Source: the human T2T-CHM13v2.0 reference genome, Homo sapiens. Taken from it: a stretch of 64,000 nt of DNA. This document shows, piece by piece, positions 14,873-18,889 of the stretch (its first letter is position 1; each line of letters begins with the position of its first letter). The notes under the pieces were generated by a model that was not told the origin of the DNA, did not search any database, and saw nothing but the letters and a program-made list of their open reading frames with translations. The position numbers and the translations under genes are program-made. The DNA lies in NCBI RefSeq assembly GCF_009914755.1, contig NC_060947.1. One strand, 5' to 3'.

Positions 14873-16038
14873 ATTGAGATTTATAGAAGACTCTGATCAA
14901 CAACAGCAGTATTAACATTTTTACAAGTGCTCAATGGAACTTTCACCAAGATGAGTCATGAAACATGCTGGTTATTTTGTTGTTCTCCTGTCTTAGGTCC
15001 ATCAGATTGTATGCCATTAATTTCTCCTTTTACTCACACAGATACCTGTGTGTTTCTGTGGCTGTTGGTGCTTTGTCTTCATCTACTTGGATTTTAAGAT
15101 CTGCGAGAATAATTCATCATGATGTTTTGTTATAAACATTGTTGATGGATTTTTGGTTTTGTTATGTAGTTGCTCTGCCTGTTTTTATGTAGAGATTAAT
15201 AGAGACTAGCCAACTATGTTCCTGCCACCACCATTTTCTCGTAATCCCTATCTATTACCTAGATTTCAGTCTTGTTAACTTTACCATATTTGCTACATCT
15301 ATTTTAAGTATTTAAAAGCAAATAACCATAGACATTCTTTCGATTTCCTCTGAAATATTTTAGCATGTATGTCTTAAATAAAAAGACATTTTTCTCAAAA
15401 AAAATCATCATACCACTACCATACCTGAAAAACTAACAATAATTCTCCAATTTCATCATCTCGCATTCAGCCCATACCTAGATTCCTCTTTTGTCCTCAC
15501 AATAGCTTTTAGAAGTGGAACTTTTTTCAAACAGTTTCCTTATGTTGCAAGGGTCCTTTAAGTATCTCTTAATCAAGCCTGACATTCTTGATAAACCTTT
15601 TTTCTTTTATTTTTAGATTATGATATTTTCTCTATGGAATTAAAGAGTAGTGCATTTTGTTTTAGAGAGTAGTGCATTTTTTTAAGAAAATTAATGTCCA
15701 GAAAAGATAAGACCATCAAAAAGATTAGGCCTGCTGCCTGGGCAAAAATTAGGTAGAGAGACCACAGGACAGCAACCACAGGAACCACCCTAACCATCTC
15801 AGGGAAACAAAACGCCTCGGGGTAGTAGTGTTCAAAGTTACTATTAGCACCTTAGAGAGTCCTCTCTGGCTCAAAGGTAATATAATCTAGTTAGTGACTT
15901 CAAAACTCCAAAGCCTAAGCTTGTAACTCAGGCTGTTTGTGGGTTCTGTGAGCTTGGCCTTTGGCAGATGTAGGGATGAAGATGCCTAGTTCCTCCCTTA
16001 GAGGTAACTGTGGATCCTGCCTAAGAAATAAGCATTTT

Positions 16039-17425
16039 GGTACTGGTACCAAAACAGAGATATAGACCAATGGAACAGAACAGAGTCCTCAGAAAGAACG
16101 CCACATATCTACAACTATCTGATCTTTGACAAACCTGAGAAAAACAAGCAATGGGGAAAGGATTCCCTATTTAATAAATGGTGCTGGGAAAACTGGCTAG
16201 CCATATGTAGAAAGCTGAAACTGGATCCCTTCCTTACACCTTATACAAAAATTAATTCAAGATGGATTAAAGACTTAAACGTTAGACCTAAAACCATAAG
16301 AACCCTAGAAGAAAACCTAGGCAATACCATTCAGGACATAGGCATGGACAAGGACTTCATGTCTAAAACACCGAAAGCAATGGCAACAAACGTCAAAATT
16401 GACAAATGGGATCTAATTCAACTAAAGAGCTTCTGCACAGCAAAAGAAACCACCATCAGAGTGAACAGGCAACCTACAAAATGGGAGAAAATTTTTGCAA
16501 CCTACTCATCTGACAAAGGGGTAATATCCAGAATCTACAATGAACTCAAACAAATTTACAAGAAAAAAACAACCCCATCAAAAAGTGGGCAAAGGATATG
16601 GACAGACACTTCTCAAAAGAAGACATTTATGCAGTCAAAAAACACATGAAAAAATGCTCATCATCACTGGCCATCAGAGAAATGCAAATCAAAACCACAA
16701 TGAGATACCATCTCACACCAGTTAGAATGGCAATCATTAAAAAGTCAGGAAACAACAGGTGCTGGAGAGGATGTGGAGAAATAGGAACACTTTTACACTG
16801 TTGGTGGGACTGTAAACTAGTTCAAACACTGTGGAAGACAGTGTGGCGATTCCTCAGGGATCTAGAACTAGAAATACCATTTGACCCAGCCATCCCATTA
16901 CTGGGTATATACCCAAAGGATTAGAAATCATGCTGCTATAAAGACACATGCACACGTATGTTTATTGCGGCACTATTCACAATAGCAAAGACCTGGAACC
17001 AACCCAAATGTCCAACAATGATAGACTGGATTAAGAAAATGTGGCACATATACACCATGGAATACTATGCAGCCAGAAAAAACGATGAGTTCATGTCCTT
17101 TGTAGGGACATGGATGAAGCTGGAAACCATCATTCTCAGCAAACTATTGCAAGGACAAAAAACCAAACACCACATGTTCTCACTCATAGGTGGGAACTGA
17201 ACAATGAGAACACATGGACACAGGAAGGGGAACATCACACACTGGGGACTGTTGTGGGGTGGGGGGAGGTGGGAGGGATAGCATTAGGAGATATACCTAA
17301 TGCTAAATGATGAGTTAATGGGTGCAGCACACCAACATGGCACATGTATACATATGTAACAAACCTGCACGTTGTGCACATGTACCCTAAAACTTATAGT
17401 ATAATAATAATAAGATTAAAAAAAA
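16039..17425 (+). mobile_element. Young 5'-truncated L1PA; ORF2 stop TAG at 16922-16924
   Basis: Near-consensus ORF2 3' end and 3'UTR; 5' TSD copy aagaaataagcatttt at 16023-16038. Confidence 0.97.
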
Positions 17426-18292
17426 GAATTCCTTTGAAACCCCAGGAGAAGTAATATTAGAAAATGAGAGTAATATTAGAAAAAGAAAGATTATTAGCCC
17501 TTTCCTTACATATCAGTGTATAGTTTCACTTGTTACAGCAAGTATGTTTTACTTCTAATTCAAAGGTCATCAAATAAGATAAAATGTTCTGCTGGCACTT
17601 TGCAAAAGAAGGGTATCCTGATGGTCAAAGTCATATGAAAAGATTCTCAGCTCTATGAGACATAAGGAAAATGCAAATTATAACCACAATGTGATATCAC
17701 TGTACATGCCAAAATGACTAAAATAAAAAAGAGAAAAAAGCCAGGCATGGTGGCTCATGCCTGTAATCCCAGCACTTTGGGAGGCCGAGGCGGGCGGATC
17801 ACCAGGTCAGGAGATCGAGACCATCCTGCCTAACACGGTGAAACTCTGTCTCTACCAAAAATACAAAAAATTAGCTGGACATGGTGGCACATGCCTGTAG
17901 TACCAGATACTCCGGTGGCTGAGGCAGGAGAATCACTTGAACCCAGGAGGTGGAGGTTGCAGTGAGCTGAGATCACACTGCACTCCAGTCTGGGCAACAG
18001 AGGAAGACTCCATCTCAACAAAAAAAAAAAAAAAAAAAAAAGAGAGAGAGAGAGAAATGATAACAATTTTGGTGACAACAAATGGAAACTACTGGATATG
18101 AAATAATTGGTATTCTTATAGGCTACTTGCTGGAGTATAAATTGATATAACCACTTTAGAAAACTATTTGGCAGTATCTATTAAAGCAGACAGATGCATA
18201 CACCAATACTCAGCAATTCTACTCCTAGATATGTACCTAACAAATATGTACACATATGAATGTTCAATAAATGTGTTTAAGAATAAAAAAAA
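17426..18292 (+). other. L1-mediated 3' transduced segment with its own AATAAA and polyA
   Basis: Second TSD copy is at 18293-18308, not after the L1 tail; AATAAA at 18266-18271, A-run from 18285. Confidence 0.92.
17739..18041 (+). mobile_element. Alu (AluS-like) inside the transduced segment, itself splitting an old L1M relic
   Basis: Dimeric Alu, long polyA then (AG)n; flanks read as diverged L1 ORF2 end (gaaatgcaaattataaccacaatg; accactttagaaaactatttggcagtatct). Confidence 0.93.
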
Positions 18293-18889
18293 AAGAAATA
18301 AGCATTTTAAGGCCTCAGTATTTTTTATAGATGGAAAGTAGAATTTTCCTTATATTTCCATGCTTTAAATTTTTTTTTCTCCAAGTTATTGGTAGAGAGT
18401 TTCCATACTTAAAAATATCCCATCCTAGAAGCAAATCATAAGGTCTGTATTCCACAGGCAGAACCCTGGCTTACAGAAATACCTGGGTGCTTGACAACAG
18501 GAGGTCATTGGAGGAGTTGGCAGCAGGGTGCAGGAATAGTTGGGATAATTTTCCTCAAGTTTGTGTTTCCCGGCTTTGTGCCGATGATCATGGAGTCAGA
18601 GAGGCAGCATGAGAAATGCTTCTCAGTCCAAGTAATTGAAACTAGGAAACCTGTGAGAAAACTGAGAGAAGACTGGAGCAAAATCCTCTAAAGGGCAGTG
18701 TGCTTTCCTTCACTGGAGGGCTTGCAAACTGCCATTTGACATGCAGGTGGCAGCATTTTTTTTCCTTTTGTCTAATGAAGCCAATCCCGTAGTCACAGAT
18801 TGGTCATGTTTTCCCCAGGATCCACTAGGGGATTTTAATATGGTGGGGCTACAGAAAGATGTCCATTGGTTTCTAACAACACCCACAGA

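What the first reader, a model, noticed from the sequence alone, without database searches (positions are those of the whole stretch)
16023..18308. L1 3' transduction carrying ~860 bp of foreign DNA, including an Alu
Seen: the 16-bp TSD aagaaataagcatttt precedes the L1 (16023-16038) but reappears only at 18293-18308. Between them lie the L1 tail, non-L1PA sequence, an old L1M relic split by an Alu, then AATAAA (18266), 13 nt and a second polyA. Established: read-through of the weak L1 polyA signal mobilises downstream flank. Inference: 17426-18284 is a barcode for the source locus, and the Alu arrived as a passenger. The source is of particular interest because this L1 carries an ORF2 stop shared with another copy.
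Basis: partly seen in the sequence, partly recalled or inferred. Interest (0 to 1): 0.75.

Follow-up and report, generated by a model that had tools for sequence, protein, structure and literature searches.

The report
Orphaned LINE-1 carrying LGR5 intron DNA
A broken LINE-1 retrotransposon copy on the X chromosome carries 860 bases copied from an intron of the LGR5 gene on chromosome 12, where its parent element is now missing, likely because it was lost from the ancestral population; its shared stop codon likely came from DNA exchange with a neighbouring copy, so this is a known kind of event.

Summary
An exact 16-bp duplication (16023-16038, 18293-18308) encloses a 5'-truncated L1, about 860 bp of non-L1PA DNA, AATAAA and a poly(A). 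The tail has one close second copy, chr12:71,473,520-71,474,376 (24 substitutions in 857 bases), with the Alu already in place, so the Alu was a passenger. First, the chr12 site has no L1 upstream: it is an empty, endonuclease-type site 8.8 kb before an LGR5 exon on the same strand. This is a 'parentless' 3' transduction, most likely from a sense-intronic source L1 that never fixed; no siblings were found. Second, the ORF2 stop does not trace the source. It lies in a 570-bp tract nearly identical to the L1 14.5 kb away (2 differences, against 24 in the adjoining 686 bp), the signature of gene conversion. The same stop motif occurs 55 times genome-wide, in local clusters, and two X copies 443 kb apart share a 728-bp identical tract. 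The transduction is a new member of a known kind. The side finding, L1-L1 sequence exchange over tens to hundreds of kb, is the more interesting lead.

The parts
16023..16038 (+). Left copy of the 16-bp target-site duplication
   Evidence: exact; 2 matches in the window
16039..17417 (+). 5'-truncated young primate L1 (end of ORF2 and 3' UTR). L1PA4-like by recalled 3' UTR diagnostics; no labelled library was run
   Evidence: 96-97% to the best distant copies; frameshift near 16565-16570 and stop at 16922-16924
16922..16924 (+). Premature ORF2 stop, 92 codons before the normal end
   Evidence: translation; motif in 55 genomic copies against 6,365 with the sense codon
16827..17396 (+). Gene-conversion tract shared with the L1 at 31277-31846
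   Evidence: 2/570 differences (both CpG) against 24/686 upstream; permutation P 0.0002; clade support 0.997 in this segment only
17418..17425 (+). First A-tract (L1 tail); its last four A match the A4 at the empty chr12 site
17422..18285 (+). Transduced segment, copy of C12:71473520-71474376 (LGR5 intron, same strand)
   Evidence: 24 substitutions in 857 bases and one 7-nt A-tract gap; LGR5 exon
17568..17731 (+). Old L1 relic, left of the Alu
   Evidence: 66% to 16576-16744; family D2
17740..18041 (+). Alu carried as a passenger (same position and flanks on chr12)
18266..18271 (+). AATAAA used as the read-through poly(A) signal; also present on chr12
18285..18292 (+). Terminal poly(A); not templated from 18286
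   Evidence: the chr12 sequence continues with non-A bases
18293..18308 (+). Right copy of the target-site duplication
30571..31920 (+). Independent 5'-inverted L1 with its own 19-bp TSD; conversion partner (forward part from 31068)
   Evidence: TSD read by eye

Best explanation
The X element is an L1 plus 860 bases of chr12 LGR5-intron DNA inserted as one unit, most likely a 3' transduction from a source L1 that once sat at the now-empty chr12 site and likely was lost without fixing, while its ORF2 stop likely arrived or spread by gene conversion after insertion. Steps: (1, inferred) a full-length L1 inserted in sense orientation in the LGR5 intron at the TC|AAAA site. (2, inferred from anatomy and established L1 biology) Transcription read through its weak poly(A) signal to the AATAAA about 845 nt downstream, taking the resident Alu and old-L1 relic along. 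(3, shown by TSD, poly(A) and 5' truncation) The RNA was inserted on X by target-primed reverse transcription. (4, inferred) The source allele was lost by drift or selection. (5, pattern shown, mechanism inferred) Much later a tract of about 570 bp, including the stop, was homogenised with the L1 14.5 kb away.
For: There is one close paralogue for both unique parts of the tail. Homology starts exactly at the L1 A-tract and ends 14 nt after AATAAA. The chr12 sequence runs on into a contiguous old repeat, so chr12 is the donor. No young L1 lies in the 18.5 kb fetched upstream; the only L1-like piece there is 14 kb away, on the opposite strand, at 84%. The junction sits on an A>=4 run preceded by TC; 67 such TT/TC sites occur in 30 kb, 0.2% of positions. 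Parentless transductions were 17 of 18 and 24 of 27 in dog genome comparisons, and were attributed to dimorphic sources (PMC7980453; PMC13141329). Precise deletion is very rare (PMC10531181). Conversion: 2/570 against 24/686 differences, Fisher P 4e-5, permutation P 0.0002; eight uncommon alleles are shared inside the tract.
Against: The source L1 was never seen; no ape or population genomes could be searched. An A-run-primed template switch gives the same junction, and 67 of 290 A-runs have TT/TC in front, so the site only weakly separates the two. The dog parentless cases are young and dimorphic, whereas this event is millions of years old. The direction of conversion is unresolved: a distant copy (C5:91.3 Mb) shares the neighbour's upstream alleles yet has a focal-type tract.
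Confidence: 0.76

Rival explanations
1. Template-switch chimera: L1 reverse transcriptase started on an LGR5 intronic RNA polyadenylated at the AATAAA, then jumped at the A4 run onto the poly(A) tail of an unrelated L1 RNA; no L1 ever sat on chr12.
For: The segment is sense to LGR5, so a host transcript through it is plausible. The junction is an A-run microhomology. The site is empty. L1 chimeras with mRNA fragments are described (bioRxiv 2025.02.02.635956 abstract).
Against: It needs a switch exactly at the L1 3' end. The best-known chimeras have the cellular RNA 5' of L1 (recalled). The L1 tail here resembles ordinary genomic tails of related copies. Lost sources are the usual explanation in print.
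Confidence: 0.13
2. The source L1 fixed and was later removed precisely by recombination between its TSDs, restoring the empty site.
For: It gives the same empty site; the sense-intronic position could favour loss (inference).
Against: Precise deletions are about 0.003% of insertions in whales and fewer in primates (PMC10531181 passages).
Confidence: 0.05
3. The two X copies share the stop because they are siblings from one source element, or because of local duplication or assembly homogenisation.
For: They are each other's best match genome-wide over 16618-17400 (99% against at most 97% for the other 38 listed).
Against: Identity stops at about 16827. Upstream they differ by 24/686, like unrelated copies, and do not group in the tree. 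Each has its own TSD, and the neighbour lacks the transduced tail. Inside the tract they are closer (0.35%) than the tail is to its own source (2.8%). An assembly artefact was not tested.
Confidence: 0.06

Closest known systems
L1 3' transduction (183 high-confidence L1 3' events in CHM13; bioRxiv 2021.07.12.451456)
   Same: TSD around L1 plus flank, two A-tracts, downstream AATAAA, interchromosomal source, length within the reported 7-997 nt range (PMC9311842)
   Different: No progenitor L1 at the source locus; an old, ape-era event rather than a polymorphic L1HS one
'Parentless' LINE-1 3' transductions (PMC7980453; PMC13141329)
   Same: The transduced sequence maps to a single locus with no adjacent L1
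   Different: Described there for young dimorphic dog elements whose parent may still segregate; here the parent is probably extinct in humans
Non-allelic gene conversion between transposable-element copies (PMC6598467; PMC8230782)
   Same: Mosaic identity, shared rare alleles, enrichment among neighbours
   Different: The range quoted for Alu is about 10 kb; here L1 tracts are shared at 14.5 kb and 443 kb, and a stop allele clusters over about 0.5 Mb
L1/cellular-RNA chimeras (bioRxiv 2025.02.02.635956)
   Same: One TSD around L1 and non-L1 sequence; no L1 at the donor locus
   Different: Here L1 is 5' with a complete 3' end and the cellular part is 3' and intronic

Membership tests
L1 3' transduction | One TSD encloses the L1 and the extra segment | tested here: met
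L1 3' transduction | The extra segment ends in a poly(A) signal and a non-templated poly(A) | tested here: met
L1 3' transduction | The segment maps to another locus and the homology ends at the element's junctions | tested here: met
L1 3' transduction | A progenitor L1 lies directly upstream at the source | tested here: not met
   empty site; so it is filed under the parentless subtype, not as a classical progenitor-linked case
Parentless 3' transduction | Single source locus without an adjacent L1 | tested here: met
Parentless 3' transduction | The source junction is an L1-endonuclease-type site | tested here: met
   (TC|AAAA); background 67 such sites in 30 kb; the site consensus is recalled
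Parentless 3' transduction | An L1-bearing allele exists or existed at the source | not testable with these tools
   needs ape or population assemblies
Parentless 3' transduction | Empty X site with a single TSD copy in outgroup species | not testable with these tools
   no primate genomes held
Non-allelic gene conversion | Bounded tract of excess identity with shared rare alleles between separately inserted copies | tested here: met
Non-allelic gene conversion | Non-reciprocal transfer with a known donor | tested here: inconclusive
   direction not resolved without orthologues
L1PA4 subfamily | Diagnostic 3' positions against a labelled consensus | not testable with these tools
   label recalled; the 3' part is also the converted part

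The most novel reading that the evidence does not exclude
Human L1 copies exchange sequence pervasively with neighbours up to hundreds of kilobases away, far beyond the roughly 10 kb quoted for Alu. Rare alleles, including an ORF2 stop, spread as local clusters, possibly with a bias towards G/C (55 copies of this stop against 13 of the other single-base stop at that codon). Rare L1 alleles would then map the range of ectopic recombination genome-wide, and lineage or age calls from L1 sequence alone would often be wrong.
Probability: 0.4. Interest if true: 0.62.

Novelty: new member of a known kind. Interest (0 to 1): 0.33.

Why it matters
The transduction itself is one of hundreds, but it is a fossil record of a vanished L1 that likely sat sense-oriented in an LGR5 intron, with a base-exact place to look for it in ape genomes. 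It also warns that shared mutations between nearby L1 copies do not imply a shared source. If the neighbourhood-scale exchange seen here is general, it offers a simple genome-wide test of the range and G/C bias of ectopic recombination between L1s.

Tried and rejected
Progenitor L1 upstream on chr12: none in the 18.5 kb fetched. Siblings: none for either unique part or for sequence beyond the AATAAA (each search scores only 40 candidates, so very short or old copies could be missed). Segmental duplication as the origin of the tail: homology ends at both junctions. Stop as a source marker: rejected. Direction of conversion from subfamily alleles: tried, unresolved. First LRR motif scan for the host gene found nothing; a splice-aware scan did; no convincing upstream LGR5 exon motif lay in the 30 kb fetched, so 'intron 1' is inferred. 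The control stop variant showed no clustering within 100 kb (0 of 13), but n is too small to be informative. Part of the stop clustering is duplication: C2 97.80 and 97.92 Mb are 100% identical over 3 kb, and 96.53 Mb is 97% identical to them. PMC9217108, recalled as discussing an L1-linked mutational process, held nothing on it in the version read. Szak 2003 and Pickeral 2000 could not be read.

Full report
Observation. The 16-mer at 16023-16038 recurs exactly at 18293-18308 and nowhere else in the window within two mismatches. Between the copies lie a 5'-truncated L1 from 16039, an A8 at 17418-17425, about 860 bp of other DNA with an Alu at about 17740-18041, AATAAA at 18266-18271, 13 nt and a second A-tract. 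The relic left of the Alu aligns to the young L1 at 66%; the part right of it did not align at E<=1e-3, but it matches dispersed old repeats at 71-87%.

Source locus. Both unique parts of the tail have exactly one close match besides the window: C12:71473524-71473818 (97%) and C12:71474147-71474376 (98%). The other 38 of the 40 listed matches in each search are partial old-repeat hits. The whole segment aligns over 17422-18285 with 24 substitutions in 857 bases and one 7-nt gap in the Alu A-tail. Ten substitutions are at CpG sites; an eleventh flagged site, 18130, is an adjacent double change and was counted as non-CpG. The Alu, its flanks and the AATAAA are all present on chr12, so the Alu was a passenger. 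On chr12 the sequence runs on past the cleavage point into the same old repeat, and only the X copy stops there; chr12 is therefore the donor. No longer sibling was found.

The source has no L1. Upstream of the junction chr12 reads unrelated sequence ending in TC, then the A4 that matches the end of the L1 tail. In the 18.5 kb fetched upstream, the only L1-like match is a 500-bp piece at 84%, 14 kb away and on the other strand. A 72-nt exon with a strong acceptor starts at C12:71482355 on the + strand, and its translation is identical to LGR5 in solved structures (E 4e-8). The empty site thus lies 8.8 kb upstream of an early LGR5 exon, sense to the gene; 'intron 1' is inferred, as exon 1 was not seen. 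TT/TC followed by A>=4 occurs at 67 places in the 30 kb (0.2% of positions), but at 67 of 290 A-runs. The site fits an endonuclease target (consensus recalled) far better than a random break, yet only weakly excludes an A-primed template switch.

Age. Tail divergence is 2.8% (95% interval 1.8-4.2) and 1.7% (0.9-2.8) without CpG sites. With recalled ape divergence values this falls broadly in the great-ape ancestor, and it is an upper bound because it includes the split between the L1-bearing and empty haplotypes. The 3' UTR looks L1PA4-like (recalled diagnostics), and L1PA4 appeared after the ape-monkey split (bioRxiv 2025.02.02.635956, section 19).

The shared stop. The stop at 16922-16924 removes 92 codons; the copy also has a frameshift near 16565-16570. 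The neighbour at 30571-31920 is a separate, 5'-inverted insertion with its own TSD and no transduced tail. It is the best genomic match to 16618-17400 (99%, against at most 97% for the other 38 listed), but it is not among the 40 listed for 16039-16615. The two differ at 2 of 570 positions in 16827-17396, both CpG, and at 24 of 686 in 16139-16826 (Fisher P 4e-5; permutation allowing a post hoc window, P 0.0002). Eight uncommon alleles are shared inside the tract. Trees pair them with support 0.997 in the tract and do not pair them upstream (43 and 32 rows; one duplicate row and rows with 10% or more missing were left out). This is a conversion tract, not common descent. The direction is unresolved.

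Wider exchange. Upstream of the tract, 4 of the 5 other young L1s in the window share at least one otherwise private non-CpG allele with the focal copy (the fifth covers only 200 bp), against 0 of 36 distant copies; inside the tract 2 of 36 distant copies share one (seven loci were left out of the distant pool: two duplicated chr2 copies and five 280-bp pieces). Genome-wide the stop motif occurs 55 times, the sense form 6,365 times and the other single-base stop 13 times. Fourteen of the 55 have another within 100 kb. After dropping the window neighbour and two duplicated chr2 copies, 12 of 52 do, against 0.3-0.9 in simulations and about 0.6 from the spacing of the first 100 background hits, all on chr1. 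A second tract allele (17076) gives 8 of 99 within 100 kb (null 1.1-3.1; P 0.001-0.056) and 30 of 99 within 500 kb (null 5-14) (100 of 101 hits were listed, neighbour dropped). I saw sequence for 20 of the 55 carriers. Five chr4 carriers within 0.54 Mb, seen over 280 bp each, differ from one another by 8-18 bases and share the stop plus a few pairwise alleles, as short tracts would give. Two X carriers 443 kb apart have no difference over 728 bp, 62 differences over the 2,285 bp aligned, and unrelated 3' flanks; their 5' flanks were not seen. Against this reading: three chr2 carriers are duplications; the chr7, chr10 and X 9.9-Mb clusters and two copies at X 49.58-49.59 Mb were not inspected; the null models are rough; at 1 Mb the excess fails under the harshest null (P 0.12); and the 13-copy control shows no clustering. 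G/C bias is a suggestion from one codon.

Comparison with print. 3' transduction is common: 183 high-confidence L1 3' events in CHM13 (bioRxiv 2021.07.12.451456, passages; its Table S13, which I could not see, may list this locus) and 268 polymorphic events of 7-997 nt (PMC9311842, passages). 'Parentless' cases were 17 of 18 and 24 of 27 in dogs (PMC7980453 and PMC13141329, passages). Precise deletion is about 0.003% in whales and lower in primates (PMC10531181, passages). Conversion between TE copies is established, mostly for Alu and LTRs, with an Alu range of about 10 kb (PMC6598467, parts 1-2 of 4; PMC8230782, passages; the primary Alu study was seen only as cited there). PMC13192797 mentions L1 gene conversion once (passages). 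Search listings for this locus, for lost sources and for neighbourhood L1 conversion showed no report of this event or of a distance scale for L1. The library lacks most subscription papers and the classic transduction surveys, so this is weak evidence of novelty.

Verdict. A real L1-plus-flank insertion (near certain), best read as a parentless 3' transduction from a lost sense-intronic LGR5 L1 (about 0.8), with the stop due to later local conversion (about 0.9). It is a new member of a known kind, interest 0.33; the conversion pattern is the lead worth following.

Noticed in passing
G000 C23:49567569 (L054) and C23:50010966 (L063): Two L1 copies 443 kb apart in opposite orientation have no difference over 728 bp but about 4% elsewhere: a very recent long-range conversion or an L1-mediated rearrangement.
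   Followed up: partly
G000 C4:56.25-56.79 Mb, C7:123.4-124.4 Mb, C23:9.89-10.52 Mb, C23:49.57-51.42 Mb: Clusters of 4-7 L1 copies carrying the same ORF2 stop motif; only the chr4 set and 4 of the 7 copies at X 49.57-51.42 Mb were inspected.
   Followed up: partly
window 5537-7732, 49748-52621, 62543-64000: Other young L1s in the window share private alleles with the focal copy (16393 and 16419; 16521; 16300), which suggests several short conversion patches.
   Followed up: partly
window 16096, 16924, 17076: Three of the focal copy's rare alleles end in G within an A-G-A context; possibly a hot context or G/C-biased conversion.
   Followed up: no
window 30571-31920 and 5574-7732: Two 5'-inverted (twin-priming type) L1 insertions in one window.
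   Followed up: no
L041:480-8330 (C12:71.4655-71.4733 Mb): By eye, a long decayed LTR-element-like stretch just upstream of the empty site inside the LGR5 intron; not tested.
   Followed up: no
L060 and L071, L1 3' ends: The L1 tail sequence appears duplicated in tandem directly after the element.
   Followed up: no
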